Below, piece by piece: positions 126 to 54,093 of a stretch of 64,000 nucleotides of DNA (its first letter is position 1; every line of letters begins with the position of its first letter). A program made the position numbers and the translations under genes. This DNA comes from an uncultured Microthrixaceae bacterium. Lineage in GTDB: Bacteria > Actinomycetota > Acidimicrobiia > Acidimicrobiales > CAVOFX01. Under the pieces are notes generated by a model. It saw only the letters and a list, made by a program, of their open reading frames with translations, had not been told where the DNA came from and made no database searches. The stretch lies in contig CAVOFX010000001.1 of the NCBI GenBank assembly GCA_963695115.1, positions 28,442-92,441 on the forward strand. The letters run 5' to 3'.

Positions 126-152
126 CTCACAACCCCCCGTATCGGATCCGGA

Positions 153-10911: not shown

Positions 10912-10915
10912 AGCC

Positions 10916-13418: not shown

Positions 13419-13445
13419 CTCACAACCCCCCGTATCGGATCCGGA

Positions 13446-19959: not shown

Positions 19960-20007
19960 ATAGGGCATCCCCCCAGACCGTGGAGACCTCCACTATGAGG
20001 AGGACCC

Positions 20008-31700: not shown

Positions 31701-31778
31701 TCCGACCGGCGCCACCGCCAACAGGCCGGCCAGCAGACACAGCACCACCCCGACACCCAGCGCTCTCAAGACCCGCAT
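25784..31778 (-). CDS. Main Rhs/YD-repeat polymorphic toxin (~2000 aa): Sec signal, NHL-like propeller, RHS shell with three inserted beta-sandwich repeats, core, C-terminal toxin. Two frame breaks in this sequence.
   Basis: MRVLRALGVGVVLCLLAGLLAVAPVGA (signal). ADTGNNRIRAF (NHL). DPVNTASGNLHETWWDLEVPGRGFGLGWSRSYNS (shell N-plug). Many YD repeats. YLRARFYDPTTGQFLTRDPI...GNPLNATDPSGLW. Frame breaks near 30360 (C/G4 run) and near 30022 (G3 run) link ORFs 30219-31778, 29986-30561 and 25784-30052. Confidence 0.9.
26795..27950 (-). repeat. Three tandem ~120-aa repeat domains inside the Rhs coding sequence
   Basis: Each unit: (V/T)F.P(L/I).PAR..(D/K)T...G.C.P.PCDRL.A.E.V.(F/V).V.G..G.P..G..AV.V..T......G..KVN......A......(S/G)....N....V..D..G.I.......D..I.V.GY(Y/H)(S/T). 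Confidence 0.8.
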
Positions 31779-32003
31779 GGCGACAGCCTCCCCGCCTCAC
31801 CCAACTGCAACGACAGCGATCAGTCGAGCGGTACCCTGCTACGGACCACGTTGCTTGTCAACCCATCGCGCCCAACCCCCCCCCAGCGCGAATGCGGTTG
31901 CCATGTGCTGGCGATCGGCGTCGAGGCCGGCAGCCGACGCCATCGACTCGCCGTGCGACGCCAGAGGCCACCCGTGTCACAGCCCCTGAACAGACTGGGG
32001 GAC

Positions 32004-39411: not shown

Positions 39412-40524
39412 TCAGTCGAAGAGCGAGAGGGCTTCCAGATCGACCACGTGAGCGGCGTGCCGCTCCGCCATGGCGAGGAACATCTCGTCGGCTCGCGGAT
39501 CCCGTCCCACCAGCACCGAGGCCACCACCGCCATGTGCAGTCCCGCGAACGTGTTGGCCCGGTACAGGTCCCAGCACTCCGACGCCCCGAGCTCGACGCC
39601 GTTCGCCACCAGACCCGTGCGGTAGGTCTCGAGGAGCTCGCGCTCGTGGCTGCGACGCTCCTCGGTGTGCAGCCCCGCGCCGAGGAAGTAGGCGGCGTCG
39701 CTCGGACCCGGACCGATCGACACCGTCTGCCAGTCGACGGTGGTGAGCGGCGGTGCGTCCGGTCCGGTTCCGAAGAGCATGTTCTCCAGCCGGTAGTCAC
39801 CGTGCAGCAGGGTGAAGGGCTTGCGATCCGCGCTCAGCCAGGTGCCGACGTCGGGAGCGAAGGCAATCGCTGTCTCCCGTGCCCGGTCGCTGAGGCGGTC
39901 GTCGTACTGCTCCAGGAACTGGGGCAGCAGCGCCACGTAGATCGTTGCGAGCCCCTGGCCCCCCTCGGCGCTGCGCGGCGTGAGCCACTCCCGGCCGTCC
40001 AGCACCCGGTTGGCCCAGAAGCTCGAGTGCAGGAGAGCGAGCTGCTCCATCGCGAGGGCCGCCTGGTCCACCGAGCACCCCGTGACCTGGTCGCCCTGCT
40101 GGGCGGGCGTGATGTCCTCGAACATCAGGACGAACTCGGCGGTGGAGAGATCGATCTCGGCGAGATGACAGGTGGGGATCCTCATCGCGCACTGCGACGC
40201 CAGCTCCTGGTAGAAGGCGATCTCGCGCACGTAGATGCCCGTCATGATCCCGGCCTGTCGAGAGGTCGGGTCCGCTGAGGCGAACTTGCCCACGACGCTG
40301 GCGGGCACCGCCTCCGGGTCGGCGCCGCTCCAGCTGAGCGTGAAGCGCACGTTCTCACCCAACTTCCCTGTGCCGATCGCCTGGGAGTCGAAGGCGGTCA
40401 CACTCGCCCCTTCGGGTGCCGCACCCGAGTGCCTCAGCACCCGGGTGAGCCACTCCGGGGTGACGTCACCTGTCTCTCCGACCAGCTCCGGCGTCTCGTC
40501 CACCGGGTCATCGTCGCGCGTCAT
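39412..40524 (-). CDS. Aminoglycoside-phosphotransferase/CHK-like kinase family protein (370 aa)
   Basis: ATG at 40524. Catalytic loop TLLHGDYRLENMLF and TVDWQTVSIGPGPSDAAYFL. The upstream part of the track ORF is Arg-rich shadow over the VWA gene. Confidence 0.75.
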   Translation of the reverse strand: MTRDDDPVDETPELVGETGDVTPEWLTRVLRHSGAAPEGASVTAFDSQAIGTGKLGENVRFTLSWSGADPEAVPASVVGKFASADPTSRQAGIMTGIYVREIAFYQELASQCAMRIPTCHLAEIDLSTAEFVLMFEDITPAQQGDQVTGCSVDQAALAMEQLALLHSSFWANRVLDGREWLTPRSAEGGQGLATIYVALLPQFLEQYDDRLSDRARETAIAFAPDVGTWLSADRKPFTLLHGDYRLENMLFGTGPDAPPLTTVDWQTVSIGPGPSDAAYFLGAGLHTEERRSHERELLETYRTGLVANGVELGASECWDLYRANTFAGLHMAVVASVLVGRDPRADEMFLAMAERHAAHVVDLEALSLFD

Positions 40525-40550: not shown

Positions 40551-43449
40551 CTATCGGATCGCCACCCGCTGGTAGAGCCTCGGCAACCGCTTGGGAAGCG
40601 CCTCCACGTCGGCCACGACCTCGTAGCCGAGGTCGCCGCAGAGCTGGCCCAGGTACTCGTGGCCTTCTCGGTCCACCGTGATCAGGAACGGCTCGATGCG
40701 CCTCCGTCGCGCCTCGGTCAGCGCCTGCCTCGTGTCCTGCACCGCGTACTCGCGCTCCGACTCCCCCGACCCGTAGTCCATGTCCATGGGCCGGCCGTCG
40801 GAGACGAGCACGAGGATCTTCACCTTCGCGTCGCAGGCATCGAGCTTGGCGACCGCGTGCCTTATCGCCGGACCCATCCTGGTCGCGCTCACGGGTTCGA
40901 TCCGGCCGATCCGCCGGCGGACCCGATCGTCGAGCTCCTCGTCGATCTCCTTGATGACCCTGAACTCGACGCTCTCGCGTCCCTCGCCCGAGAAGCCGAA
41001 GATCCCGTACCGGTCGCCGATCGCCTCCAGCGCCTCGACCATGACGACCGCTGCCTCCTTCTCCACGTCGATGATCCGACCGGTGTCCGGCTCCCCGCGA
41101 CCCTCGACCGGTGCGATCGCCTCGTTGGTGGAGGCGGACATGTCGAGGAGGAGCGCGACCGCGACGTCCCTGGTCACCTTGTCGCGGCGGCTGTAGAAGC
41201 GGGCCAACGGGCCGACGCCGGCCAGCTTGTCGGCGTGGAACTGGATCGCTTCGTCGAGGTCGATCTCGTGACCGTCCTCGAGGCGCTTCAGGCGCCGGAA
41301 CGCCTCCGGACGCATCTTCTCGAACTGCCTCCGGGTGGCGACCACCAGGGCGTGTCGTCGGGCGAGGGTGTCGAGGTAGAAGTCGAGCTCTCCCTCCTCG
41401 CCCGCCATCTCGCCGACACGGCACCAGGCCGGCCTGTAGTCGCGGGCATGGAAGTCCCACTCGTCGTAGCGGAACCACTCCACCTCGCCGTCGGATTCGT
41501 CCTCGTCCGGCGAGAGGGCCCTACGGACGACCCGGCGCTTCGCCTCGTCCTCCATCGCTGCGAGCAGCTCTTCGGCCTCGTCGGCTCCGTCACCCTCGGC
41601 GTCGATCTCGGTCGTCGCCTCGAGCAGCGATTCGAGCTCGTCGGCACCGATGGTCGGGGCCTCGCCCTCGGCAGCCTCCTGCTCCGTCAGCTCCGACAGG
41701 ACCTGGACGATCTCCGGCTTGAAGTCGCCCCTCACCTCGGGCGGAGCGGGTGCTGCGAACGGTCGCTCGGTGCCACCACCGGCGGCAGACCGGCCCTGCG
41801 GCACCACGTTGGGGATCGCCTCGGCCGCCTCGTACAGGGCGGCGGCGATCTCGGCGGAGTCCTGCACCGTGACCTCCGGGCGCGAACGCGACCTCCAGCA
41901 CCGAGGTGGCTCGGGTCTGCGCTTCACCGATCTCTTCGGGGACCTCCATCAGGTCCGGACGACCGAGCGAGAAGCGGATCAGGTTCTCCACGAGCAGCTC
42001 GCGCTGGGGGAGCTCGCGAGGCGATGGGCGTCGCTCTGCCTCGAGGTCCTGGATGCGCCGCAGCGCGCTGCGGATCCCCGGGTAGCGCCTGATGACCAGC
42101 GAGTCGATCCGCAGGCCCTCCGCCAGGCCGAAGAGCGCCACTATCAGCGCACGGTCATCGAAGACCTCGAAGAAGCGGGTCATCGGTGTCGCTGTGCGAT
42201 CCGGGGCTCCCCGCTCACGGGCCGGATAGGTGGCGACGAGGTGCTGCCCGTCGACCCCGAAGCGGAAGTCGAACGACCCGAACTCGAGGCGTGCGGCCTG
42301 CTGGGTGACCGCGACCTTGTACACGGAGAAGTTCGACGCGTGATCGTCGAACACCTCCATCGCCGACGGGAGGAAGATCGCCAGCCCGTCGGTGGTGGCC
42401 GCTCCGCCTGCGGCCCACCCGATGCGTCGCTGGCCGAGCAGCGATCGCGGGTGGAGGCCGATCGTACGACCGCAGAGCGCCTGGGCGTAGCGCCCGAGCA
42501 CCCCGGATGCCTCCGCGAGCTCGACTCGACCCGTGAGCGCGGTGAGCAGCTCCTGGGCCTGCGCCGACTCGAGCCGGAACCAGCTCGCTGCCCTCTCGCC
42601 TCCGTGGGGGTCGGTGAGCAGATCGGCACCGGCCGCGGCCCAGCACCGACCCTCCTCGGCACCGACCTTCGCCCACACCTCAGGAGCGGAGGTCAGGAAC
42701 GTGCTCGCCGCCGAGGCGTTGGATCGGGCCATCTCCACAGCCAGCGCGACCAGCTCGTCCTGCTCGTCGGGCGAAGCGACCGCCAGCGCCTCGGCAGCGC
42801 CGGCGAACCGCTGGAAGCCTCCGCTGCCGACCTCCTCCACGACCAGCACGGCCAGCTCGACGAGAGCGACGCGCACGGACGGCTCCACCCCTCCGATGAG
42901 CCCGGGGAAGCGCCGCAGGCAGTCGTAGGTCTCCACGCGGGATCGGTGCACGACCTCGCCCAACAGCCTCAGGAAGGGTCCACGACCCGACGACTCGAGG
43001 GTGCAGAGGATCGTCGGCGTCTCGGTGAGGCACGCAGAGGCGATGTCGGGCTCGTCGACAGCCACCGCGGCGACTGCCTCCACCAGCCCGTCGAGCTCGC
43101 CCACGGGTACCTCGCAGAGCAGCTCCCGGGCGAGCGAGAAGTACTGCGACGCCAGCCGGGCTGAGCGCCAGCCCCCGCTCATCAGCCGCCTTCCCTGTGA
43201 GGCCCAGGCCTCCAGCTCGGCGGGCTCCAGGTGATCCAGTGCGTCCGCTGTCGCGCCGACGAACGCGGCCGCCGCCTGGGCCGATTGGTCGGCCACCATG
43301 CCGACGAGGTCGGTCCAGCGAGTGAGCTCGCGTCCCTCGAGACGTCCGGCCAACTCGGGTGCGGCGGCGGCCAGGGCGTCGGCGACTTCGCGTGAGCGGG
43401 GCCGCGTCTCGGCGGAGAGGCGCCTGATCACGTCCTCCGCGAGGGTCAC
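40551..43449 (-). CDS. CbbO/NorD-type von Willebrand factor A protein (~965 aa), one apparent frameshift near 41895
   Basis: ORF 41590-43449 (N-terminal helical part) continues in ORF 40551-41927. VWA/MIDAS: DVAVALLLDMSASTNE...GFSGEGRESVEF...ILVLVSDGRPMD. Sits directly downstream of a CbbQ/NorQ-type ATPase gene. Confidence 0.75.
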
Positions 43450-43491: not shown

Positions 43492-44466
43492 TCACTCCTC
43501 GAAGATCGAGGTGACCACCTCCGCGATCGAAGCCTGCACCTCCCGATCATCGGTGAGGGACCACACGACCGCCGTCTCGCAGGCCCGCCGCGGCGCGATG
43601 CCCTGGGAGCAGAGCTTGCCCGCGTACACGAGCAGGCGGGTCGAGACCCCTTCCTCGAGGCCGTGCTCGCGGAGGTTGCGCACCTTCGCCCCGAGCCGGG
43701 CCAGACCCGACGCGACGTCGGGAGAGCAGCCGGACTCTCGCTCGATGATCTGTTCCTCGAGCTCGAGGGCGGGGTAGTCGAACTCGATCGAGATGAAGCG
43801 CTGCCGTGTGGAGTGCTTCAGATCCTTCAACGCAGACTGGTAGCCGGGGTTGTAGGAGAGCACCAGGAGGAACCCGTCCGCCGCGATGAGGAGCTCACCG
43901 CGCTTCTCGATCGGGAGCAGCCTTCGGTAGTCGGCCAACGGGTGGATGAGGACCGTCGTGTCCTTGCGGGCCTCGACGATCTCGTCCAGGTAGCAGATGG
44001 CACCGAACTTCACGGCCCGGGTGAGGGGTCCGTCGATCCATCGCGTCTCGTCGCCCTCGAGCAGGTACCGGCCGACCAGGTCGGAAGCGGTGAGGTCCTC
44101 GTGGCAGGCGACCGTTATGAGCGGCACGCCCTCCTCGTCGCGGTCCGCTAGATGACGGTGGAGGTGCCACGACATGTACTCGACGAAGCGCGTCTTGCCG
44201 CAGCCGGTGGGCCCCTTGAGGAGCACGGGAACCTGCTGCTCGTAGGCGGTCTCGAAGAGCTCCACCTCGTCGCCGATGGGCAGGTAGTAGGGCTCCTCGG
44301 TGATGCGGAAGTCCTGGATCTCGAGGCGGTCGAATCCGAGGTTGGGCTGTTCGTCCGTGGCGGTGCCTCCGTCTCGGGCGGTACCTTTCAGGAACCCGGG
44401 AGAGGACCACCGGCCGGCACCGCTTGGCTGTTCCCTCCCCCGGCTATATCTTGTATAGTCTAGCAA
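43492..44466 (-). CDS. CbbQ/NirQ/NorQ-family MoxR-type AAA+ ATPase; start codon uncertain
   Basis: [42 protein letters not shown] (Walker A), [13 protein letters not shown] (Walker B). The only in-frame canonical start is the TTG at 44466, inside the AT-rich promoter-like island, so the real start is probably further in or obscured by an indel. Confidence 0.8.
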
Positions 44467-44522: not shown

Positions 44523-44654
44523 GTGTTCGCAGTCAGCATGAACCTCGACTTCGACAAGCTGAAGGAGAACGAGGAGAAGGGCGCGGCCAAGAAGGCTGAG
44601 GCCAAGGACAAGGCCAAGGGCAAGGCGAAGTCAGAGGCCAAGGAGAAGGACTGA
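44523..44654 (+). CDS. Possible small lysine-rich protein (43 aa; or 38 aa from ATG 44538)
   Basis: aaggggga, 4 nt, then GTG. VFAVSMNLDFDKLKENEEKGAAKKAEAKDKAKGKAKSEAKEKD. AAG-rich coding is unusual in this GC-rich context. Confidence 0.35.
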   Translation: MFAVSMNLDFDKLKENEEKGAAKKAEAKDKAKGKAKSEAKEKD

Positions 44655-44819: not shown

Positions 44820-47693
44820 GTGGCCGATACCTCCACCCCGGGGCTTCCCGGGCTCGTACGTCTCGCGCCGATCGACGCCGGCAAGCGCCTCGACGAGGTG
44901 CTCGCCCGTCCCTACCAGTACCGCGACTGGGAGGACGTCTACCGCGAGCAGTGGACCTGGGACGACGTCGTCCACGTCTCCCACCTCCGCACCAACTGCA
45001 TCTCCGCGTGCTCTCTCGATGCCTACGTGAAGGACGGCATCGTCTGGCGTGAGGAGCAGAACGCCAACTACCCGCAGGAGTTCGAGCACATCCCCGACTT
45101 CAACCCCCGGGGATGCCCCGCGGGCTGTGCGTACAGCATCCAGATGTACGACCCCACCCGCATCCGCTACCCGATGAAGCGGGTGGGAGAGCGTGGCTCC
45201 GGCAAGTGGGAGCGCCTCTCGTGGGACCAGGCGTTCACCGAGATCGCGGACAGGCTCATGGATGTGCTGGTCGAGGACGGCCCTGACTGCGTCGTGTACG
45301 ACCAAGGCACCACCAACATCGACAACGGGCTCGGCTCGATGATGGAGATGCACTTCTTCGGTGGTGGCATCGGGGCGAGCACCATCGACTCGTGGGCCGG
45401 CGTCGGCGACCTCCCGGTCGGGCTGATCCAGACCTGGGGCACCTACATGAGCGAGGGAACCGCGGACGACTGGTTCCTCTCCGACTACATCCTGATCTGG
45501 ATCGGCAACCCGAACTACACCCGCGTCCCCGAGGCCCACTTCATCTGGGAGGCCCGCTACCGCGGCGCGAAGGTGGTCTCGATCGCACCCGACTTCAGCC
45601 CGTCGACCGTGCACGCCGACCGGTGGATGAACGTGAGGTTCGGCACCGACGCCGCCCTCGCGCTCGGCATGGCGAACGTGATCCTCACCGAGGGCCTGTA
45701 CGACGAGGCGTACCTCAAGGAGCAGACCGATCTGCCCTTCCTCGTGCGCGACGACAACGGGAAGTTCCTCCGCGAGAGCGACGTGGTCGAGGGCGGCGGC
45801 GACGAGGAGTTCTACTACTGGAACTCGGCCAAGAAGCAGAAGCAGCTCGCCTCGGGCACGTGGGGCTCGGACGTCATGACCCTCGAGCTGGCCGACGACG
45901 AGGACCCGGCGCTGGAGGGGGCCCACACGGTCACCCTCGTCGACGGCACGAAGGTGAAGGTGCGTCCGGTCTTCGAGCTGCTCCGGGCCCACGTGGCGAC
46001 CTACACACCCGAGTACGCGGCCGAGGTGACCGATGTCCCCGCCGGCAACATCCGCCGCGTCGCCCGCGAGCTGGCCGCTGCGAAGTCGGCGATGATCTTC
46101 TCCTCCTGGGGCGCCTGCAAGCACTACCACTCCGACCTCTTCCAGCGGGGCATGGCCTACCTGATGGCGCTCACCGGCAACACGGGAGGCAAGCCGGGAT
46201 CCGGGATCAAGGTCTCCACCTGGTGGCCGATGCCGGGGTTCGTCCTCTCGACCTTCGGCCCGCGCCTGGCAACCGAGCCCCCGGCACCGATGCCGATGGA
46301 GCGGGCCCAGATGCAGGACGTCTCGAAGATGATGTTCGAGATGATGACGGCGGCGATGCGCTCAACACCGCTCATCCCCTGGCTGTACGCGCACGACCCC
46401 GAGTGGGCGAAGATCGCTGGTCGGGACGAGTACGCGGATCCCGCCCTGAAGAGGCCGGTGGCCGAGTACATGGAGGAGATCTTCGAGAACGGCTGGCAGC
46501 CGATCCTGCCGAAGCCGCCGCGCAAGCCGAGGTTCTTCTACTACTCGGGGCCGAACCCCCTGCGACGCTGGCCGAACCCCAAGACCATCCGCGACAGCCT
46601 GTGGAAGGAGATGGAGACGATCGTCACCACCGACTTCCGGATGTCGACCTCGGGGATGTGGTCCGACTACATCCTTCCGTCCTGTGGGTACTACGAGAAG
46701 CCGGGCATCAAGTACGTGCAGTCGTACATCCCCTATGTCGTCGTCGGCGACCGGGCGGTACCCCCCTTGTACGAGTCGAAGCACGAGTGGGACGTGATGC
46801 TGGGTCTCGCCAAGAAGATCCAGGAGCGTGCCCACGAGCGCGGCATCGAGGGCTACAGGGACATCGGCGGCGGCTACCACCGCCTGGACAACCTGTACGA
46901 CGAGATGACCGCCGACGGCTGGTACGTGGAGGGCGAGAAGGGCGAGACCCGGGCTCTCGACTACATCATGCGCCACTCGCAGATCACTCGAGCCAGCGAC
47001 CTCGGTGAGCAGCCTTGGAAGAAGGCGACCACCGATGGCATGGTCAAGATCGAGGCGGTCGACCCGATCGACCTCGCGATCGGCCTGAGCACCATGATGA
47101 GCGACTTCGACTACAGCGAGCCCATGAACCAGTTCGGATGGTTCATCAAGCGCAAAGAGCCATGGCCCACGCTCACCGGCAGGCAGCAGTTCTACATCGA
47201 CCACGACTGGTTCCAGGAGGTCGGCGAGGAGCTGGCGGTCCACAAGGAGCCGTTGGCAGCCGGAGGCCCCTACCCGCTCCGCCTCACCGGGGGGCACAAC
47301 CGGTTGAGCATGCACGCGATCTTCCGGGCGAACCCGCAGCTCCTCCGCCTGCAGCGCGGCGAGCCGATCGCGTTCCTCAGCGTCCCCGACGCACGTGACC
47401 GGGGAATCTCCGACCACGACCTCATCCGCGTCTACAACGACATCGGCGAGTTCGTGCTGCACGCCGCGGTATCACCCGCCCTCCAGCCCGGCGAGGTGAT
47501 CTGCTACCACGCGTGGGAGGGCTACCAGTTCCCGGGAGGCGGCACCCAGAACGACGTCGCCGCGAGCCCGCTCAAGCCGACCAACATGATCGGGGGATAC
47601 GGACACCTCCAGTACAGGGGTGCGTACATGACCATGAACCACGTTCCGAAGGAAGTCGCGATCGAGGTCGAGCGCGTGAGGGAGTCGGTATGA
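44820..47693 (+). CDS. Type II (NarG-like) Mo-bisPGD oxidoreductase, catalytic alpha subunit (957 aa), no Tat signal
   Basis: N-terminal FS0-type motif aligns with NarG (SHLRTNCISACSLDAYVKDGIVWREEQ...NPRGCPAGCAYSIQMYDPTRIRYPMKR). GTG start preceded by agggagg. No twin-arginine leader. Uninterrupted 2.9 kb ORF. Confidence 0.85.
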   Translation: MADTSTPGLPGLVRLAPIDAGKRLDEVLARPYQYRDWEDVYREQWTWDDVVHVSHLRTNCISACSLDAYVKDGIVWREEQNANYPQEFEHIPDFNPRGCPAGCAYSIQMYDPTRIRYPMKRVGERGSGKWERLSWDQAFTEIADRLMDVLVEDGPDCVVYDQGTTNIDNGLGSMMEMHFFGGGIGASTIDSWAGVGDLPVGLIQTWGTYMSEGTADDWFLSDYILIWIGNPNYTRVPEAHFIWEARYRGAKVVSIAPDFSPSTVHADRWMNVRFGTDAALALGMANVILTEGLYDEAYLKEQTDLPFLVRDDNGKFLRESDVVEGGGDEEFYYWNSAKKQKQLASGTWGSDVMTLELADDEDPALEGAHTVTLVDGTKVKVRPVFELLRAHVATYTPEYAAEVTDVPAGNIRRVARELAAAKSAMIFSSWGACKHYHSDLFQRGMAYLMALTGNTGGKPGSGIKVSTWWPMPGFVLSTFGPRLATEPPAPMPMERAQMQDVSKMMFEMMTAAMRSTPLIPWLYAHDPEWAKIAGRDEYADPALKRPVAEYMEEIFENGWQPILPKPPRKPRFFYYSGPNPLRRWPNPKTIRDSLWKEMETIVTTDFRMSTSGMWSDYILPSCGYYEKPGIKYVQSYIPYVVVGDRAVPPLYESKHEWDVMLGLAKKIQERAHERGIEGYRDIGGGYHRLDNLYDEMTADGWYVEGEKGETRALDYIMRHSQITRASDLGEQPWKKATTDGMVKIEAVDPIDLAIGLSTMMSDFDYSEPMNQFGWFIKRKEPWPTLTGRQQFYIDHDWFQEVGEELAVHKEPLAAGGPYPLRLTGGHNRLSMHAIFRANPQLLRLQRGEPIAFLSVPDARDRGISDHDLIRVYNDIGEFVLHAAVSPALQPGEVICYHAWEGYQFPGGGTQNDVAASPLKPTNMIGGYGHLQYRGAYMTMNHVPKEVAIEVERVRESV

Positions 47694-48349
47694 GCCCCGC
47701 CAAGCCGACCGTCATCGATGCCCGCCGTGTGCGGGCATCGCTCGACACGCTGATCGCCCCCGATGCGGCCGAGTGGGACCGTGCCGACGAGGTGGCGGTG
47801 GCGCTCGAGCCAACGCCACTCGACCGGCAGCCCTCCGCATACGTCCAGGTCGCCTGGCAGGATCGCCCCCGCGCCACCCTGCGACAGCTTCGGGTTCGGG
47901 CTCTCTCCAACGCCAACGGGCTGGCTCTGCGACTCGAGTGGGCGACGGCCAGGCCGCAGCGGAGGATCTCGGACGTCAACATCTATCCCGACGCCTGCGC
48001 CGCCCTCTTCCCGGCTGACGGCAAGAAGGCCGACCTATCCACCATGGGCACCGCCCGCCAGCCCGTGCAGGGCTGGCACTGGCGGGCGGGCACCGACGAT
48101 CCGTTCGTGATCACCGCCCGGGGGCTGGGCACGGTAGAGCGAGCCCCCGACCATGCCGTGGAGGCACGGGCACGCTGGACCGACAACAGCTGGCAGGTCG
48201 TGCTGACCCGTCCGTTCAAGGAGGACGGCGTACCGCTCGCCCACGGTGCCAAGCTCCCCGTCGGATTCGCCATATGGTCCGGCTCGGCGCGTGAACGAGC
48301 CGGACTGAAGTCGTACTCACCCCAGCCCCACCAGCTCCACGTGGGCTGA
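47690..48349 (+). CDS. Ethylbenzene-dehydrogenase-gamma-like heme b subunit (219 aa), no signal peptide
   Basis: The ATG overlaps the alpha stop (ATGA). [11 protein letters not shown]...[19 protein letters not shown]...[18 protein letters not shown] fits the EB_dh family, with candidate Met and Lys heme ligands. Confidence 0.7.
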
Positions 48350-48360
48350 GGAGGATCAGG

Positions 48361-49420
48361 ATGCCCAAGACCGCAAGACCAACCCACCAGTTCGCGATGG
48401 TCTTCGACCTGAACAAGTGCCTCGGTTGTCAGACCTGCACGGTGGCCTGCAAGACCCAGTGGACCCGGGGCGGCGGCATGGACGCGATGTGGTGGAACAT
48501 CGTCAACACCATGCCGGGCCGGGGAACCCCCCGTGACGCGTTCGACCTCGGCGGCGGGTACCACGACGGGAGCTCCGGTTCCCGGCACGATCCCACCGAA
48601 GGCCGACTGGGGCGAAGCCTGGGACTTCGACTACGACGGCGTCTTCGCGGGCGGCGCGGAGGGAGTCCCCCTGCGCCCGCACGAGCACGACGGCTCGGCA
48701 CCGACCTGGGGTCCCAACTGGGACGAGGACATCGGTGGGGGTGAGTACCCCAACTCGTACTTCTTCTACCTGCCGCTGCTCTGCATGAACTGCTCCAACC
48801 CCGCCTGCCTCGAGGCATGCCCCCGTGATTCGATCTACCGGCGCGAGGAGGACGGCGTCATCCTCATCGACGAGGAGCGCTGCCACGGCTACCGCTTCTG
48901 CATGGAGGCGTGCCCGTACAAGCGCATCTACTTCAACGAGCAGCGCGCCATCGCCCAGAAGTGCATCTCCTGCTACCCACGGCTCGAGGCCGGGGTCGCT
49001 CCGGCGTGCGTGCGCCAGTGCCCGGGCCGGATCCGCCACGTCGGCTTCCTCGACGACCGCAAGAGCCACATCTACAAGCTCGTCAAGAAGTGGAAGGTGG
49101 CCCTCCCGTTGCGGCCCGACTTCGAGGTCGAGCCGAACGTCTTCTACGTGCCTCCCACCATGCCGACCGCCTTCGACGAGGACGGCGAGTTCGACGAGGA
49201 CGCGTCGCGGATCCCGCTGGAGGAGCTGAGGAGCTGGTTCGGTCCCGAGGTCGACCAGGCGCTCGCCACCATCCAGGAGGAGCGCGAGAAGGTCGCCGCC
49301 GGTGGGAAGTCGGAGCTGATGGACCTCCTCATCGCCCGCGACTGGCAGGAGCTGCTGGGCCCGTACCCGGTGGATCCGGGCGAGCTGGAGCGACCTCAGG
49401 TCAAGCCGAGAAGGAAGTAG
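48361..49420 (+). CDS. NarH-like four-cluster Fe-S beta subunit, one apparent frameshift near 48560
   Basis: [11 protein letters not shown] in ORF 48361-48744. [26 protein letters not shown] and [21 protein letters not shown] in ORF 48533-49420. Confidence 0.85.
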
Positions 49421-49422
49421 CC

Positions 49423-50082
49423 GTGTCCACGGTCCATCTCGGCGTCGCACCCGAGGCCCACCGGGCCGCTGCTCCTGCCCGCCAGGTGCTGTACGGCCGG
49501 CTCGCCGAGCTGCTCAGCTACCCGACTCCGGAGCTGTGCCAGGCCTATTCGGAAGGCAGCCTCGCGACCGAGATGACCCGGACCCTGGATCAGCTCCCGT
49601 ACACCCTCGCCTTCGATCCCGCTCCCTTGCAGGGTGACTCCGCCGAGATCGGGAGCGAGTACATCCGGCTCTTCGAGGTCGGAGCAGGGTCGCCCACCTG
49701 CCCGCTGTACGGAGGTGTGCTCGGCGGTGACCGCCGCACGGTGATGGAGGATCTCCTCCGCCTGTATCGCCACTTCGGGCTGAGCACGGCCGAGGCGCAG
49801 TTCAGGGATCTGCCGGACTCGATCCCCACGGTGCTCGAGTTCTGCTGCTACCTCACCTTCCGTGAGGCCGATGCGGGGGCGGACGAAGCCGTCTCCTACA
49901 GAGCGGCGCAGGCCGACCTCCTGGACAGGTACCTGGCGACCTGGACGGGCATGATCCGGGCCCGGATGCCGCTGCTCGAACCGACGCCGCTCTACCGAGC
50001 CTCCGTGGAGCTCCTCGACGAGTTCGCTGTCGCCGAGCTCGCCGCTCTGGGCTCGACGAAGCGCTCGGCCCGCGGGAGCTGA
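49423..50082 (+). CDS. NarJ/TorD-like assembly chaperone (delta subunit, 219 aa)
   Basis: GTG at 49423, 2 nt after the beta stop. LYGRLAELLSYPTPEL...EYIRLFEVGAGSPTCPLYGG...DSIPTVLEFCCYL. The earlier part of track ORF 48910-50082 is shadow. Confidence 0.7.
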   Translation: MSTVHLGVAPEAHRAAAPARQVLYGRLAELLSYPTPELCQAYSEGSLATEMTRTLDQLPYTLAFDPAPLQGDSAEIGSEYIRLFEVGAGSPTCPLYGGVLGGDRRTVMEDLLRLYRHFGLSTAEAQFRDLPDSIPTVLEFCCYLTFREADAGADEAVSYRAAQADLLDRYLATWTGMIRARMPLLEPTPLYRASVELLDEFAVAELAALGSTKRSARGS

Positions 50083-50119
50083 ACCTCCACATCGGGCGTG
50101 AGCCTGCAGCGGACCGCGG

Positions 50120-50584
50120 GTGTCAGACTTGGCCCTCATGGGTGTCGTCGCCGAACAACCGAGCGTCAAGCGGGCCGGACGGAGCCCGGTGACCACCGTC
50201 TGCGCCGGATACCTGCTCGCGCAGGCGGTGCTCGGCGTCGTGCTGTGGGTGGCCTTGACCGCATCGGAGACCGTCTGGTCCTGGTTCGAGCTCGTCCCGG
50301 AGGTACCCGAGGTGACCGATGCCTTCTTCTTCGGCGATCTCGGCGTGATCGTGGTGGGATCGGCCTTCGGTGCATGGGGCGTCTGGTCGCGGGCCCGATG
50401 GTCGGTCCCGGTCGTGGCCTTCACCGCGGGTGCCGTCGCGTACCCGACCGTGTACCTGGTGGGGTGGACCTCTCTCACCGGGGTCGGATCCGTCCCGCTC
50501 TGGGTGATGGTGACGACCTGCACCCTCACCTGCTGGGTGGCGTGGCTGACCTGGCGAACCGACCTGCATCGACCCGGCGGCTGA
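50120..50584 (+). CDS. Four-TM membrane protein (154 aa), last gene of the Mo-enzyme cluster
   Basis: Complete ORF with four hydrophobic helices. Function unknown. Confidence 0.5.
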   Translation: MSDLALMGVVAEQPSVKRAGRSPVTTVCAGYLLAQAVLGVVLWVALTASETVWSWFELVPEVPEVTDAFFFGDLGVIVVGSAFGAWGVWSRARWSVPVVAFTAGAVAYPTVYLVGWTSLTGVGSVPLWVMVTTCTLTCWVAWLTWRTDLHRPGG

Positions 50585-51314: not shown

Positions 51315-52157
51315 CTAGGAGGCGAGCGAACCGGCGAAGATCTGCCAGGCGAGAGCCGACTTCGCGACCAGGCTCAGCACCAGATACGACTTCTCACCGA
51401 ACGCGTAGCTGCGCCACGGCCCGATCTCCCTGTACTGCAGCCACTGGTTCAGCGCGAAGCTGTTGAAGAACAGGAACAGCGAGACGAAGATGACGACGAC
51501 GAAGCCGGGAACCTCCTCGGCCGCGACGAGGTTGTAGCCGATCGCCACCCAAGGTGCGGCGCCGGCTACGCATCCGAACCAGAACGGCCTCATCGTGAGT
51601 CGTGTGCGTCCCGGGGGGTTGGCAAGCTCCTGCAACCAGCCGAACAGGATCATGGCCACGTTCGCGCCTGCGATCCCTATGAGCGCCGAGAGCTCCGTTA
51701 TGCCCGTGTACAGTGCGATCAGGATCACCATCACCGTCGCGCTGAGCGAGTACTCCACCCAACGGAATCGGCTGATCCCGCTGCGCAGGTCGGACTCGTA
51801 GGTACCGCGGAGGGCTGTCCCTGCGAGCAGGTGGTCGAGAGCTGCAAGCCCGAGGAACACCGCGATCGCGGAGCCGACCCGTAGGTCGAGGAGTGCTTCA
51901 GGAGCACCGGGCGGTGTGCCCGGGGGTCCCGTGGGCAAGGTCCGGGTCACCGTGATGGAGAAGTCGGTGGCCAACGCGAGCACCAACAGCACCTGACCGG
52001 CGTGCAACAGCGTGAGCGCGATGTTCCAGCCGCGGAGAGATCTCAGGCTGGCCCCGTCCACACCTGTCGCCGTCACCTGCTCGGGTTCCATGAGTACATC
52101 AGCACACCACACCCCGATGCGCGATGCCACGAGCCAACGCCGGTCCTCGGCGGACAT
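51315..52157 (-). CDS. Heliorhodopsin (alternative start at 52091)
   Basis: Family-diagnostic strings: FRWVEYSLSATVMVILIA, NVAMILFGWLQE, PFWFGCVAGAAPW, SLFLFFNSFALNQWLQY, and LVLSLVAKSALAWQIFAGSL containing the retinal Schiff-base lysine. Close to the remembered sequence of heliorhodopsin 48C12. Confidence 0.85.
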   Translation of the reverse strand: MSAEDRRWLVASRIGVWCADVLMEPEQVTATGVDGASLRSLRGWNIALTLLHAGQVLLVLALATDFSITVTRTLPTGPPGTPPGAPEALLDLRVGSAIAVFLGLAALDHLLAGTALRGTYESDLRSGISRFRWVEYSLSATVMVILIALYTGITELSALIGIAGANVAMILFGWLQELANPPGRTRLTMRPFWFGCVAGAAPWVAIGYNLVAAEEVPGFVVVIFVSLFLFFNSFALNQWLQYREIGPWRSYAFGEKSYLVLSLVAKSALAWQIFAGSLAS

Positions 52158-53322: not shown

Positions 53323-54093
53323 GTGAAGACGTTGATCCTGGCTGGTGGCTTCGGCACTCGACTGTCCGAGGAGACGGATCGGGTGCCGAAGCCGATGGTG
53401 GAGATCGGCGGCCGTCCGATGCTGTGGCACATCATGAAGCTCTACTCTGCTGCAGGTCTGTCGGATTTCGTGGTGGCGTTGGGGTACAAGGCGGAGATCG
53501 TGAAGGACTTCTTCCTGCGGTACCGGCTCCTCGGTTCGGATCTCACGGTGGCGACCTCGTCGGGGGATGTCGAGGTGCATCACCCGCCGCTCGATGACTG
53601 GACGGTGGATCTCGTGGACACCGGCCTGTCGACGAACACAGGTGGACGGGTGCGCCGCGTTGCGCATCGCCTGACGGAGGGGCCCTTCTGCCTCACCTAT
53701 GGCGACGGGGTCTGCGACGTGGACCTGCGGACGCTCCTCGGGTTCCATTCGTCGCACGAGAAGTTGGCGACGATCACCGCCATCAGGCCACCGTCTCGCT
53801 TCGGTGGGCTCGTGCTCGACGGCGATGCCGTCCGTGAGTTCACCGAGAAGCCGCAGATCGGCGAGGGCTGGATCAACGGTGGGTTCATGGTGTTGGACCG
53901 GTCGGTGGTCGAACGGATCGAGGGCGACGACACCAGCTTCGAGGCCGACGTGCTCGAAGCGCTGGCAGCGGACGGTGAGCTGATGGCGTTCCGCCACGAT
54001 GGCTTCTGGCAGTCGATGGATACGTTGCGCGACGTGCGGACGCTGCAAGCGCTCTGGGCCACCGGAGCTCCACCTTGGCGGACGTGGGCGTGA
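53323..54093 (+). CDS. rfbF: Glucose-1-phosphate cytidylyltransferase
   Basis: [39 protein letters not shown]...[10 protein letters not shown]...[13 protein letters not shown] at 53323. Confidence 0.85.

What the first reader, a model, noticed from the sequence alone, without database searches (positions are those of the whole stretch)
44820..50584. NarG-like type II Mo-bisPGD oxidoreductase operon in the order alpha-gamma-beta-delta, with no Tat or Sec signals
- Alpha subunit: aligns with NarG around the FS0 cluster, but the operon encodes an ethylbenzene-dehydrogenase-type heme b gamma subunit (candidate Met in STMGTA, Lys in GLKSYS) instead of NarI.
- Known systems: enzymes with this gamma subunit (Ebd, Ser, Ddh, Clr, Pcr, periplasmic Nar/Nxr types) are exported. 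Their alpha has a twin-arginine leader, their gamma has a Sec leader, and the gene order is alpha-beta-(delta)-gamma or alpha-beta-gamma-delta.
- This operon: the alpha start (GTG after agggagg) has no RR leader. The gamma N-terminus ([19 protein letters not shown]) has no hydrophobic signal. Gamma sits between alpha and beta, coupled by ATGA. A four-TM protein follows delta.
Together these predict a cytoplasm-facing EBDH-like complex of unknown substrate.
Basis: partly seen in the sequence, partly recalled or inferred. Interest (0 to 1): 0.6.

Follow-up and report, generated by a model that had tools for sequence, protein, structure and literature searches.

The report
Non-exported ethylbenzene-dehydrogenase-like molybdenum enzyme operon
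This is a real four-gene operon for a molybdenum/iron-sulfur/heme b enzyme of the ethylbenzene- and steroid-C25-dehydrogenase type that has lost its export signal, so it should work inside the cell, whereas every characterised relative with this heme subunit works in the periplasm; its substrate and electron acceptor are unknown.

Summary
The operon is real. It comprises alpha (44820-47693), gamma (47690-48349, ATGA overlap), beta (48361-49420) and delta (49423-50082). Alpha is not NarG-like in the strict sense. It matches PcrA (570 bits) and EbdA (535 bits) about twice as well as NarG (283 bits). Its Mo-ligand Asp (D197) and the gamma heme ligands (M119, K207) are conserved.

No subunit has a Tat or Sec leader. 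Alpha has 29 residues where relatives have a Tat leader. They carry a vestigial L-(R/K)-R-L-A-P motif and no hydrophobic core. The window has VR; 38 of 64 family members keep RR.

The alpha-gamma-beta-delta order and the lack of a leader are conserved in Acidimicrobiia (Microtrichaceae), Chloroflexi and some proteobacterial MAGs.
- EbdC itself has no leader.
- S25DH gamma and beta genes were cloned as one "gamma3beta3" fragment.

The 4-TM ORF is not conserved. An EcKL/APH kinase and a CbbQ/CbbO-like AAA+/VWA pair are conserved neighbours.

Beta carries a 1-nt insertion. So do several unrelated genes in the window, so assembly error is likely.

Best reading: a cytoplasmic, oxygen-independent alkyl-chain hydroxylase. 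It is a new variant of a known kind.

The parts
44820..47693 (+). Alpha subunit, 957 aa. It is a Mo-bisPGD catalytic subunit of the type II (Asp-ligated) DMSO reductase family. Residues 1-29 are a vestigial Tat leader (GLVRLAPIDAGKRLDEVLA) with no hydrophobic core. The FS0 motif is H55-x4-C-x3-C. D197 is the Mo ligand and K434 corresponds to EbdA K450.
   Evidence: Pfam PF00384 and PF01568. TIGR03479 scores 901.9 bits, with query residues 30-951 on profile positions 37-913. PcrA 1.1e-169, EbdA 4.2e-159, NarG 3.5e-83. Residue mapping from the EbdA and PcrA alignments. In-frame stop upstream. Hydrophobicity of the N-terminus.
47690..48349 (+). Gamma subunit, 219 aa. It is an EB_dh/DOMON-like heme b subunit whose start overlaps the alpha stop (ATGA). 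Heme ligands M119 and K207 are conserved. It has no signal peptide.
   Evidence: PF09459 at 5.4e-21. TIGR03477 scores 131 bits and the EbdC model 119 bits. Alignment to 2ivf_C at 3e-29. Junction sequence. N-termini of homologues.
48361..49420 (+). Beta subunit, carrying four Fe-S clusters. It is interrupted by a 1-nt insertion at about 48573-48576. The repaired product is 352 aa with 15 Cys.
   Evidence: The two ORF halves match TIGR03478 positions 2-63 and 67-319. DNA alignment to three homologues shows the extra base. tblastn shows a frame 1 to frame 2 switch, and the repaired translation is uninterrupted.
49423..50082 (+). Delta subunit, 219 aa. It is a NarJ/EbdD-type assembly chaperone and the probable binder of the vestigial N-terminal peptide of alpha.
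   Evidence: PF02613 at 1.6e-14. TIGR03482 scores 125 bits. GTG start 3 nt after the beta stop. It is conserved after beta in the Microtrichaceae-type loci that extend that far and in two of the three Chloroflexi loci; loci L019 and P0082 lack an adjacent delta.
44523..44654 (+). Small conserved ORF, 38-43 aa, between cbbQ and alpha. The N-terminus reads (V/M)F(A/S)V..LDxDKLK and is followed by a highly charged tail. Its function is unknown.
   Evidence: Translation and homologous ORFs at the same position in L001 and L003/L013. It is called as a 52-aa gene in L013. It was not found in L007-L012.
43492..44466 (-). CbbQ/NorQ-type MoxR AAA+ ATPase, divergent from alpha. The true start is probably near 44409.
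   Evidence: PF07728 and PF08406. It has 75-85% identical counterparts at the same position in every Microtrichaceae-type locus that extends upstream.
40551..43449 (-). CbbO/NorD-like large protein with a C-terminal VWA domain. It is one 994-aa ORF in relatives. In this window a frameshift at about 41870-41890 splits it in two.
   Evidence: VWA PF00092. Single 994-aa gene in L013-L015. tblastn shows a frame -2 to -3 switch.
39412..40524 (-). EcKL/APH-family small-molecule kinase, about 362-370 aa. It is a conserved neighbour of the operon. It lies downstream of cbbO here and immediately after delta, convergent, in relatives.
   Evidence: PF02958 at 9.5e-14 and PF01636 at 1.1e-8. It is 66-70% identical next to delta in L001, L002, L003, L007, L010, L012 and L013-15.
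50120..50584 (+). Hydrophobic ORF of 154 aa with 3-4 predicted TM segments. It is probably not part of the system.
   Evidence: No Pfam or NCBIfam match. No tblastn match in any homologous locus.

Best explanation
[quoted passage not shown] It belongs to the subgroup with an EB_dh heme b gamma subunit (EbdABC, S25DH and similar) and has a NarJ/EbdD-type chaperone, delta.

**Shown:**
- Alpha has the Asp Mo ligand and the FS0 motif.
- Beta has the full Cys complement once the 1-nt insertion is removed.
- Gamma keeps the Met/Lys heme ligands.
- None of the four proteins has an export signal.
- The clade descends from Tat-exported ancestors. It retains only a vestigial (R/K)-R-L-A-P motif followed by a charged, amphipathic stretch.

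**Inferred mechanism:**
1. Delta binds the vestigial N-terminal peptide, as NarJ binds the remnant leader of E. coli NarG. It holds apo-alpha for Mo-bisPGD and FS0 insertion.
2. The holo-complex stays in the cytoplasm.
3. Mo(VI)=O abstracts hydride from an unactivated C-H of a hydrophobic substrate and returns OH derived from water.
4. Two electrons leave via FS0, FS1-FS4 and heme b to an unidentified cytoplasmic or membrane-associated acceptor.

**More weakly inferred:**
- The substrate is an alkyl, isoprenoid or sterol-type side chain.
- The conserved EcKL/APH kinase phosphorylates the resulting alcohol. This would parallel the S25DH to 25-hydroxysteroid kinase to elimination to S26DH cascade of Sterolibacterium.
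- The CbbQ/CbbO-like AAA+/VWA pair assembles or reactivates the complex.

The beta and CbbO-like frameshifts are most likely assembly indels.
For: **Family and cofactors**
- Domain and family matches for all four genes.
- PcrA scores 570 bits and EbdA 535 bits, against 283 bits for NarG.
- D197 aligns with EbdA D223 and PcrA D170. K434 aligns with EbdA K450.
- Gamma M119 and K207 align with EbdC M108 and K201.
- The repaired beta is 352 aa with 15 Cys, the same as the intact homologue.

**No export**
- An in-frame stop excludes an N-terminal extension.
- The TIGR03479 profile is matched only from position 37.
- There is no hydrophobic core: alpha scores at most 0.9, against 1.3-2.0 in Tat-bearing relatives.
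- Beta, gamma and delta also lack leaders.
- At the vestigial motif, 38 of 64 members have RR, 9 have KR, and 54 of 64 have Arg at position 2.
- Among 50%-identity cluster representatives scoring at least 500 bits, 22 of 31 have true Tat leaders. The Tat-less state is therefore derived.
- Delta-alpha fusions occur in related Tat-less clusters.

**Conservation**
- The alpha-gamma-beta order recurs in Microtrichaceae, Chloroflexi and a gammaproteobacterial MAG; delta follows beta in most of these loci but not in L019 or the P0082 locus.

**Link to alkyl-chain hydroxylases**
- S25DH gamma3beta3 genes are contiguous (PMC6016249).
- Relatives carry several alpha paralogues per beta-gamma set, plus orphan alphas, as in Sterolibacterium (PMC6153880).
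- The kinase neighbour is conserved in 9 of 9 Microtrichaceae-type loci that extend past delta.
- The Sterolibacterium 25-hydroxysteroid kinase is a 40-kDa phosphotransferase with up to 46% identity to actinobacterial proteins (PMC8449060).
- Flanking genes in relatives include an acyl-CoA ligase, an SCPx-type thiolase annotated as lipid-transfer protein, an acyl-CoA dehydrogenase, SCP2, a pair of flavin oxidoreductases, a luciferase-like F420 enzyme, an aldehyde dehydrogenase and a 2-hydroxyacyl-CoA-lyase-like enzyme.

**Frameshifts as artefacts**
- At least five further frame breaks occur in unrelated genes of the window.
Against: - No member of this clade has been characterised, so the substrate assignment rests on context and analogy.
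- I could not obtain S25DH, S26DH, CmdA, AhyA or 25-HSK sequences. Neither the phylogenetic position of alpha relative to them nor the homology of the kinase to 25-HSK was tested.
- The best PDB match is an oxyanion reductase (PcrA), marginally above EbdA.
- EbdA His192, proposed to take part in catalysis, is Thr164 here.
- The kinase family is broad. A 50%-identical member in Myxococcota is not next to any Mo enzyme.
- The kinase and the CbbQ/O pair are linked to the operon only in the Microtrichaceae lineage, not in Chloroflexi.
- No candidate electron acceptor is conserved nearby.
- A cytoplasmic DOMON-like heme b subunit has no precedent among the characterised enzymes tabulated in the review I consulted (PMC10100899).
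- The window's own flanks (GH43, amidohydrolase, heliorhodopsin, sugar-nucleotide genes) are not catabolic lipid genes.
Confidence: 0.55

Rival explanations
1. It is a cytoplasmic oxyanion oxidoreductase. It would be a soluble or peripherally attached nitrate, chlorate, perchlorate or selenate reductase, or a nitrite oxidoreductase. It would use the same wire in reverse or forward, as the cytoplasm-facing NarG and Nitrobacter-type NxrA do.
For: - The top structural relative by sequence is perchlorate reductase PcrA, at 1.1e-169.
- The Asp Mo ligand is shared with all oxyanion reductases of the clade.
- A cytoplasmic orientation has precedent only in the NarG/NxrA branch. This is established knowledge, and the table in PMC10100899 agrees.
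Against: - The PcrA gating residues F164 and Y165 are Ser and Trp here.
- There is no NarI-type anchor, no NarK-type transporter, no chlorite dismutase and no cytochrome c in any of the loci examined.
- The narG model scores 333 bits against a cutoff of 1084.
- The context in relatives is CoA-dependent lipid-type catabolism plus a small-molecule kinase.
- The presence of several alpha paralogues per beta-gamma set is typical of substrate-diversified hydroxylases.
Confidence: 0.15
2. It catalyses another reaction of the Mo-bisPGD repertoire on an organic or sulfur substrate. Examples are dimethylsulfide dehydrogenation, dehydroxylation, hydration, or oxidation of an alcohol or aldehyde. The kinase and the CbbQ/O pair would be unrelated neighbours.
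For: - One source annotates the closest homologue as 'dimethylsulfide dehydrogenase subunit alpha'.
- All family models score below their trusted cutoffs. The clade is therefore outside every defined equivalog.
- EbdA His192 is not conserved.
Against: - That annotation is automatic.
- The kinase is adjacent in 9 of 9 Microtrichaceae-type loci, even though its position was rearranged in the window. This argues for a functional link.
- S26DH already shows that this enzyme type also performs alcohol-to-aldehyde oxidation within the hydroxylase pathway (PMC7411048).
Confidence: 0.17
3. The complex is exported after all. This could occur through residual function of the RR motif, or by hitch-hiking on a Tat substrate encoded elsewhere.
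For: - RR is retained in 59% of family members, and Arg at the second position in 84%.
- EbdB and EbdC are themselves exported without leaders of their own. This is inferred.
Against: - No hydrophobic core follows the motif. The next 15 residues contain 4-5 charged residues.
- Mature PcrA aligns from alpha residue 30, so there is no room for an h-region or c-region.
- The first Arg is freely replaced by V, S, Q, N, T or G.
- Delta-alpha fusions exist in related clusters.
- Most hosts are monoderm Actinobacteriota and Chloroflexi. A soluble exported complex would be lost from such cells. This last point is inference.
Confidence: 0.06
4. The locus in this genome is decaying. Beta and the CbbO-like gene would be pseudogenes carrying real frameshifts, so no functional enzyme is made here.
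For: There is a single-base insertion in beta and a frame switch in the CbbO-like gene.
Against: - Equivalent frame breaks occur in unrelated genes 4-8 kb away. These are an NAD-epimerase in 2 frames and a C-methyltransferase in at least 3 frames.
- Related long-contig MAG loci (L010, L012) show the same pattern of scattered breaks.
- Both halves of beta keep strong third-position GC bias and 81-88% identity to the intact homologue, with no other lesions.
- Alpha, gamma and delta are intact.
Confidence: 0.07

Closest known systems
Steroid C25 / C26 dehydrogenases (S25DH1-4, S26DH1-2) of Sterolibacterium denitrificans
   Same: - An alpha-beta-gamma Mo-bisPGD / 5 Fe-S / heme b architecture with a separate chaperone, SdhD (PMC6016249, PMC6153880).
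- Gamma and beta genes are contiguous and are named in that order.
- Related loci hold several alpha paralogues per beta-gamma set.
- The pathway partner is a roughly 40-kDa phosphotransferase, and the flanking genes are CoA-dependent side-chain catabolism genes.
   Different: - S25DH and S26DH carry Tat leaders and are assigned to the periplasm, with cytochrome c as presumed acceptor (PMC7411048). This enzyme has no leader.
- Sequence relationship to S25dA was not tested, because no sequence was available.
- The CbbQ/CbbO-like pair has no reported counterpart.
Ethylbenzene dehydrogenase EbdABCD (Aromatoleum aromaticum; PDB 2IVF)
   Same: - Alpha matches at 4e-159 over residues 33-941.
- Asp223 and Lys450 equivalents are conserved.
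- Gamma matches at 3e-29 with Met108 and Lys201 equivalents.
- Gamma lacks a leader of its own in both enzymes.
- Both have a delta chaperone.
   Different: - The gene order is alpha-beta-gamma-delta in ebd and alpha-gamma-beta-delta here.
- EbdA has about 27 extra N-terminal residues forming a Tat leader (query residue 33 aligns to EbdA 60).
- His192 is Thr164 here.
- All Ebd equivalog models score far below cutoff (565 vs 2000, 119 vs 400).
Perchlorate reductase PcrAB (Azospira suillum; PDB 4YDD)
   Same: - It is the best-scoring solved structure (1.1e-169, about 40% identity).
- The Asp170 equivalent is conserved.
- The overall size is similar.
   Different: - PcrA is Tat-exported and partners with a multiheme c-type PcrC, not an EB_dh heme b subunit (my knowledge of the family).
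- The aromatic gate residues F164 and Y165 are not conserved.
Respiratory nitrate reductase NarGHJI of E. coli
   Same: - It is cytoplasm-facing.
- The N-terminus of the catalytic subunit is a non-functional remnant of a Tat leader that serves as the NarJ binding site. This is established knowledge (Ize et al. 2009), not re-tested here.
- It has an Asp Mo ligand and a His-ligated FS0.
   Different: - NarG is about 1,245 aa and only distantly similar (283 bits).
- Its gamma is the membrane di-heme NarI, not an EB_dh protein.
- Its gene order is alpha-beta-delta-gamma.

Membership tests
Type II (Asp-ligated) DMSO reductase family, alpha subunit | MopB domain plus a C-terminal molybdopterin-dinucleotide-binding domain | tested here: met
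   PF00384 at 8e-38 and PF01568 at 1.5e-15.
Type II (Asp-ligated) DMSO reductase family, alpha subunit | An Asp side chain as the Mo ligand | tested here: met
   D197 aligns with EbdA D223 and PcrA D170.
Type II (Asp-ligated) DMSO reductase family, alpha subunit | An N-terminal FS0 motif starting with His (H-x3-C-x3-C...C) | tested here: met
   SHLRTNCISAC followed by NPRGCPAGC. The spacing is H-x4-C-x3-C, one residue longer than in PcrA.
Type II (Asp-ligated) DMSO reductase family, alpha subunit | Score above the trusted cutoff of TIGR03479 (DMSO_red_II_alp) | tested here: not met
   901.9 bits against a cutoff of 984.75. The shortfall corresponds to the unmatched leader, profile positions 1-36.
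EBDH-like enzymes (EbdABC, S25DH, Cmd, Ahy; also Ser/Ddh/Clr share this gamma) | A gamma subunit with an EB_dh fold that binds heme b through Met and Lys | tested here: met
   PF09459 at 5e-21. M119 and K207 align with EbdC M108 and K201.
EBDH-like enzymes (EbdABC, S25DH, Cmd, Ahy; also Ser/Ddh/Clr share this gamma) | A twin-arginine leader on alpha and a periplasmic location | tested here: not met
   There is no hydrophobic core, VR replaces RR, and an in-frame stop lies upstream. All characterised members are listed as periplasmic (PMC10100899).
EBDH-like enzymes (EbdABC, S25DH, Cmd, Ahy; also Ser/Ddh/Clr share this gamma) | A beta subunit with three [4Fe-4S] clusters and one [3Fe-4S] cluster | tested here: met
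   After the extra base is removed, the 352-aa beta has 15 Cys in four groups, identical in number to the intact homologue. TIGR03478 matches both halves.
EBDH-like enzymes (EbdABC, S25DH, Cmd, Ahy; also Ser/Ddh/Clr share this gamma) | Water-dependent hydroxylation of an unactivated C-H | not testable with these tools
   This needs enzyme assays.
Ethylbenzene dehydrogenase proper (EbdABCD equivalogs) | Equivalog-level similarity and the active-site residues His192, Asp223 and Lys450 | tested here: not met
   NF042978 scores 565 bits against a cutoff of 2000, and NF042980 scores 119 against 400. His192 is Thr164; Asp and Lys are conserved.
S25DH/S26DH-like steroid side-chain hydroxylases | The gamma gene directly precedes the beta gene, and several alpha paralogues share beta-gamma | tested here: inconclusive
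   The order is met here and in all relatives. The Sterolibacterium order is inferred only from the 'gamma3beta3' 1.8-kb amplicon. Extra alpha paralogues occur in relatives (L007, L010, L012, L016, L018, L019) but not in this window.
S25DH/S26DH-like steroid side-chain hydroxylases | Sequence clustering with S25dA/S26dA, and a partner kinase homologous to 25-HSK | not tested
   No S25dA, S26dA or 25-HSK sequence could be obtained with these tools. The kinase search did not list any Sterolibacterium protein among the best 120.
Respiratory nitrate reductase NarGHJI | narG/narH equivalog scores and a NarI membrane subunit in the operon | tested here: not met
   TIGR01580 scores 333 bits against a cutoff of 1084, and TIGR01660 is below cutoff. 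The gamma subunit is EB_dh, not NarI.

The most novel reading that the evidence does not exclude
This clade is an entirely cytoplasmic version of the water-dependent hydroxylation, phosphorylation and elimination chemistry so far known only from denitrifying Sterolibacterium. There, the Mo steps are periplasmic and the intermediates must flip across the membrane.

In this reading, monoderm Acidimicrobiia and Chloroflexi internalised the Mo/heme b hydroxylase and kept the twin-arginine remnant only as a chaperone handle. They also coupled the enzyme to an EcKL-type alcohol kinase, a MoxR/VWA (CbbQ/CbbO-like) remodeller and a new, non-cytochrome-c electron acceptor. This would let widespread soil, groundwater and sludge bacteria oxidise tertiary or unactivated carbons of sterol, hopanoid or isoprenoid lipids without oxygenases.
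Probability: 0.2. Interest if true: 0.75.

Novelty: new variant of a known kind. Interest (0 to 1): 0.55.

Why it matters
- **Location.** Every characterised enzyme with an EB_dh heme b gamma subunit (Ebd, Cmd, S25DH/S26DH, Ser, Clr, Ddh; also the periplasmic Nxr) is exported. PcrA, whose partner is a c-type cytochrome rather than an EB_dh subunit, is exported too. Reviews list the Asp-ligated non-NarG enzymes as periplasmic. A conserved, widespread clade that keeps the whole wire, heme b included, but stays in the cytoplasm poses a concrete and testable question: what accepts electrons from a high-potential heme b inside the cell?
- **Signal-peptide evolution.** The clade gives a second, independent example beside NarG of a Tat leader decaying into a chaperone-binding remnant. 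This can be tested directly with delta and peptides carrying RR, KR or VR.
- **Ecology.** If the hydroxylase reading is right, oxygen-independent activation of alkyl, isoprenoid or sterol carbons is far more widespread than the few denitrifying model strains suggest. It would extend to Acidimicrobiia and Chloroflexi of soils, groundwater and activated sludge.
- **Biotechnology.** A non-exported enzyme of this type may be easier to express for selective hydroxylations such as 25-hydroxyvitamin D3.

Tried and rejected
- **Upstream extension.** An in-frame extension hiding a Tat motif is rejected. There is a stop about 90 nt upstream and no start codon in between. Homologues start at the same place.
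- **Ordinary NarG.** Rejected on scores and size.
- **4-TM ORF as membrane anchor.** Rejected as a conserved component, because it has no counterpart in any related locus.
- **Source contig.** The exact-sequence look-up of the window's own alpha found no record.
- **Literature.** Six full-text searches and nine papers read turned up no description of a Tat-less EBDH/S25DH-type enzyme. Dermer & Fuchs 2012 is not held.
- **Kinase link to 25-HSK.** The homologue search returned only unnamed or generically named phosphotransferases at 46% identity or above. A 50%-identical Myxococcota member is not next to a Mo enzyme. A second context look-up failed. The 25-HSK link therefore stays untested.
- **Regulatory elements.** A Rfam scan of 39-51.5 kb for a Moco riboswitch or other element found nothing at E up to 1. 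The sigma-70 and terminator scans gave nothing above the shuffled background.
- **Second alpha paralogue in the window.** None was found.
- **Phylogeny.** I did not build a tree, because the key references (S25dA, S26dA, CmdA, AhyA, SerA, DdhA, ClrA) could not be fetched. A tree with only PcrA and EbdA fragments would not discriminate.
- **Structure prediction.** Not run. Coordinates are not returned, so the substrate pocket could not be inspected.

Full report
**1. What is in the sequence**

Window 44820-50082 (+) holds four tightly packed genes.

*Alpha.* Alpha runs from 44820 to 47693 and is 957 aa. It starts at a GTG eight bases after cagggagg. An in-frame TGA lies about 90 nt upstream with no ATG, GTG or TTG in between, so a hidden N-terminal extension is excluded.

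*Gamma.* Gamma runs from 47690 to 48349 and is 219 aa. It starts at the ATG of an ATGA overlap with the alpha stop.

*Beta.* Beta begins at 48361 and ends at 49420, but it is read in two frames.
- Residues 1-71 are in frame 1 and the remainder is in frame 2.
- A DNA alignment with three homologues shows one extra base at about 48573-48576. The window reads GACGGGAGCTCCGGT where the homologues read GACGGCGA-GCCGGT.
- Deleting one base gives an uninterrupted 352-aa beta with 15 Cys, the same number as the intact 348-aa homologue.

*Delta.* Delta runs from 49423 to 50082 and is 219 aa. It starts at a GTG three bases after the beta stop.

*Family assignments.*
- Pfam: Molybdopterin plus Molydop_binding for alpha, EB_dh for gamma, Fer4_11 for beta, Nitrate_red_del for delta.
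- NCBIfam: the four 'DMSO reductase family type II' models TIGR03479, TIGR03477, TIGR03478 and TIGR03482 are the best hits. All score somewhat below their trusted cutoffs.

**2. Which branch of the family**

Alpha is much closer to perchlorate reductase PcrA and ethylbenzene dehydrogenase EbdA than to NarG or the periplasmic NxrA.

| Solved structure | PDB | E-value | Bits |
|---|---|---|---|
| PcrA | 4YDD | 1.1e-169 | 570 |
| EbdA | 2IVF | 4.2e-159 | 535 |
| NarG | - | 3.5e-83 | 283 |
| NxrA (periplasmic) | - | 1e-42 | - |

The narG equivalog model scores 333 bits against a cutoff of 1084. 'NarG-like' is therefore true only at the level of the Asp-ligated type II clade.

Residue mapping from the printed alignments:
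- D197 corresponds to EbdA D223 and PcrA D170, the Mo ligand.
- K434 corresponds to EbdA K450.
- EbdA H192 is T164 here.
- The PcrA gate residues F164 and Y165 are S and W here.

Gamma aligns with EbdC at 3e-29. M119 corresponds to Met108 and K207 to Lys201.

**3. Export signals**

*Alpha.*
- Mature PcrA aligns from alpha residue 30, and EbdA residue 60 aligns with alpha residue 33.
- The TIGR03479 profile is matched only from position 37.
- Alpha therefore has 29 residues where relatives have a leader of 45-60 residues.
- These 29 residues (MADTSTPGLPGLVRLAPIDAGKRLDEVLA) have no hydrophobic core. The best 13-residue Kyte-Doolittle mean in the first 60 residues is 0.9. Eleven homologues with canonical RRxFLK leaders score 1.3-2.0.

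*Other subunits.* Beta, gamma and delta also lack hydrophobic N-termini. The same holds for gamma in eight related loci.

In EBDH, gamma has no leader of its own and must be carried out with alpha. A leaderless gamma is therefore normal for this subgroup, and the alpha N-terminus decides localisation.

**4. The N-terminus is a relic, and the trait belongs to a clade**

A search of 5.8 billion proteins found a family of alphas about 950-960 aa long, at 55-85% identity. They come from MAGs labelled Acidimicrobiales/Microtrichaceae, Dehalococcoidia/Tepidiformaceae and other Chloroflexi, and some Proteobacteria. Their N-termini share the motif x-L-R-R-L-A-P-x-D-A-x-x-R-L-x-x-L-L-S-R-P-Y-x-Y-R-x-W-E-D-V-Y-R.

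Among 64 members with complete N-termini:
- 38 have RR at the motif.
- 9 have KR.
- 54 have Arg at the second position.
- The first position is otherwise V (this window), S, Q, N, T or G.

At about 50% identity the nearest sequences split into two groups. One has genuine Tat leaders. The other is a further leaderless group in which the first FS0 ligand is Cys instead of His.

An exhaustive HMMER search of 1.84 billion cluster representatives found 914 hits at E of 1e-30 or better. Of the 31 full-length representatives scoring at least 500 bits, 22 carry Tat leaders and 9 do not. At least one of the nine (P0127) is a delta-alpha fusion, whose N-terminal 211 residues are 36% identical to the window's delta (E = 6e-25); P0144 shows only a weak, short delta-like match (E = 0.004).

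The simplest reading is inference. A Tat-exported ancestor lost the hydrophobic core but kept the twin-arginine region because delta binds it. This is the situation established for the remnant leader of E. coli NarG and NarJ, which I cite from knowledge and did not test here.

**5. Synteny**

The genome-collection scan and the context look-ups gave 19 related loci.
- The alpha-gamma-beta order, with the ATGA-type overlap in most of these loci, is present in all Microtrichaceae-type loci that extend past alpha (L001-L003, L007, L010, L012, L013-15). It is also present in three Chloroflexi loci (L016, L018, L019) and in a gammaproteobacterial MAG. Delta follows beta in all of these except L019 and the gammaproteobacterial locus.
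- The 4-TM ORF after delta has no counterpart anywhere.

Three other features are conserved in the Microtrichaceae lineage:
- **A divergent CbbQ/NorQ-type AAA+ gene and a 994-aa protein ending in a VWA domain.** In the window the latter is split by a frameshift near 41870-41890.
- **An EcKL/APH-family kinase of about 362 aa at 66-70% identity.** It lies directly after delta in nine loci and has moved to the end of the cbbQ-cbbO unit in the window.
- **A small charged ORF between cbbQ and alpha.** It is found in some of these loci.

Several loci carry additional alpha paralogues at 36-48% identity, without their own beta and gamma. They are also leaderless where I checked (L007). Four loci carry an orphan alpha at 75% identity with no beta, gamma or delta nearby.

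**6. What the frameshift means**

The same window has frame breaks in the CbbO-like gene. It also has them in an NAD-dependent epimerase/dehydratase, where profile positions 1-56 and 53-230 fall in different frames. A C-methyltransferase has three domains in three frames. Related long-contig MAG loci (L010, L012) are similarly broken. Both halves of beta are otherwise 81-88% identical to the intact homologue. I therefore regard the beta frameshift as a probable assembly indel, not a biological feature. Only the reads can settle this.

**7. Function**

*Shown:* a complete Mo-bisPGD, FS0, FS1-4, heme b wire, a dedicated chaperone, and no export.

*Inferred:* the reaction. Several observations point to the alkyl-chain hydroxylase subgroup rather than the oxyanion reductases.
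- **Gene order.** Gamma sits before beta. In Sterolibacterium the S25DH 'gamma3beta3' genes were amplified as one 1.8-kb fragment (PMC6016249). The ebd, ser, ddh, clr and nar operons place beta directly after alpha.
- **Alpha paralogues.** Multiple and orphan alpha paralogues per beta-gamma set match Sterolibacterium, which has eight alphas (PMC6153880).
- **The conserved kinase.** In Sterolibacterium the C25 alcohol made by S25DH is phosphorylated by a 40-kDa phosphotransferase. That enzyme's closest non-proteobacterial relatives are actinobacterial, at up to 46% identity (PMC8449060). The phosphate is then eliminated, and a second Mo enzyme, S26DH, hydroxylates the allylic carbon (PMC7411048). 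The Pfam family that best matches the window kinase, EcKL, is named after an insect ecdysteroid side-chain kinase. That last point is from my own knowledge and is a lead, not a test.
- **Flanking genes in relatives.** These include an acyl-CoA ligase, an SCPx-type 'lipid-transfer' thiolase, acyl-CoA dehydrogenases, SCP2 and a pair of adjacent flavin oxidoreductases (compare the two-subunit delta-24 desaturase, PMC11061730). Also present are a luciferase-like F420 enzyme, an aldehyde dehydrogenase and a 2-hydroxyacyl-CoA-lyase-like ThDP enzyme.
- **No oxyanion-respiration genes.** There is no NarI, NarK, chlorite dismutase or cytochrome c gene in any locus.

Against this reading:
- PcrA is marginally the best structural relative.
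- EbdA His192 is not conserved.
- The kinase family is broad, and a 50%-identical member elsewhere is not linked to Mo enzymes.
- The kinase and CbbQ/O links are lineage-specific.
- The window's own outer flanks are unrelated genes.
- I could not obtain S25dA or 25-HSK sequences to test homology directly.

The electron acceptor is unknown. The periplasmic enzymes are thought to use cytochrome c, which is not available in the cytoplasm. The role of CbbQ/CbbO is also unknown. By analogy with CbbQO, NorQD and CoxDEF, which I cite from knowledge, it may be assembly or reactivation of the metalloenzyme.

**8. Comparison with what is known, and novelty**

A recent family-wide review lists the Asp-ligated non-NarG enzymes (S25dA, CmdA, EbdA, SerA, ClrA, PcrA and the haloarchaeal DmsA) as periplasmic (PMC10100899). 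S25DH and S26DH are assigned to the periplasm because of their Tat leaders. Six full-text searches found no description of a leaderless enzyme of this type. This does not prove that none exists, because subscription reviews such as Heider et al. 2016 are not held.

The locus passes the tests for the type II family and for the EB_dh-gamma subgroup, with two exceptions. It fails the export criterion and all equivalog cutoffs. It is best filed as a new variant of a known kind: a cytoplasmic branch of the EBDH/S25DH-type enzymes.

**9. Verdict**

- The mechanism is well grounded for architecture and localisation (about 0.85). It is moderately grounded for 'oxygen-independent alkyl-chain hydroxylase' (about 0.5). 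It is speculative for the kinase-coupled cascade (about 0.2).
- Interest is moderate to good. The finding would make two questions directly testable: the cytoplasmic acceptor of a DOMON-type heme b, and the decay of a Tat leader into a chaperone handle.

Noticed in passing
window 41870-41890, 48573-48576, 54075-54885, 54846-56295: Several genes are split by single-base frame breaks. They are the CbbO-like gene, beta, an NAD-dependent epimerase/dehydratase (2 frames) and a C-methyltransferase (at least 3 frames). This density suggests indel errors in the assembly, as in long-read MAGs, rather than pseudogenes.
   Followed up: partly
window 51315-52157 (-): A heliorhodopsin gene (PF18761, E = 1.8e-94) lies about 1.2 kb downstream of the operon on the opposite strand.
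   Followed up: no
window 44523-44654 (+); L001 9782-9934; L013 9834-9992: A small ORF between cbbQ and alpha has a conserved N-terminus, (M/V)F(A/S)V..LDxDKLK, and a highly charged low-complexity tail. It is conserved in three lineages but was not detected in L007-L012.
   Followed up: partly
P0127 (1152 aa), P0144 (1130 aa): These are Tat-less alpha subunits from related 50%-identity clusters. In P0127 the first 211 residues are a NarJ/delta-like chaperone domain fused to the N-terminus, 36% identical to the window's delta (E = 6e-25). P0144 has a similar N-terminal extension but only a weak, short match to delta (E = 0.004).
   Followed up: partly
P0085, P0098, P0101 and relatives; L018 8001-10781: This is a sister leaderless clade at about 50% identity, mostly Chloroflexi. 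Its first FS0 ligand is Cys instead of His (GTCNRADCIAAC). It has the same alpha-gamma-beta-delta order, followed by a MobB-FmdE fusion gene and two further alpha paralogues. It is preceded by two flavin oxidoreductases and an SCP2 protein.
   Followed up: partly
L004, L005, L006, L011 (alpha at 10001-12865 etc.): These loci carry orphan alpha genes 75% identical to the window's alpha. They come from MAGs labelled delta-proteobacterium or Spirochaetales and have no gamma, beta, delta, kinase or cbbQ within 10 kb. L011 has a second, 48%-identical alpha on the opposite strand.
   Followed up: partly
window 48-1195 and 13341-14488: A 1.15-kb direct repeat (99.65% identity) brackets about 13 kb. 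Each copy contains a 163-aa ORF on the minus strand.
   Followed up: no
window 18975-33458: This is a mobile or defence-like block. It holds a phage-type integrase (18975-21377, -), a primase/Toprim protein of 1074 aa (21469-24693, -), an RHS-repeat protein of 1422 aa (25784-30052, -), a DUF6531 protein (30219-31778, -) and an N6/N4 DNA methylase (31566-33458, +).
   Followed up: no
L007 17521-19191 (-) and 19323-22103 (+): In a Microthrixaceae MAG, a second leaderless alpha paralogue sits next to a ThDP enzyme. The alpha scores higher on the EbdA model than the main alpha does (653 vs 565 bits). The ThDP enzyme's second-best NCBIfam match, after an acetolactate synthase model at 413 bits, is actinobacterial 2-hydroxyacyl-CoA lyase (363 bits, below cutoff). 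This hints at catabolism of tertiary-branched acids.
   Followed up: no
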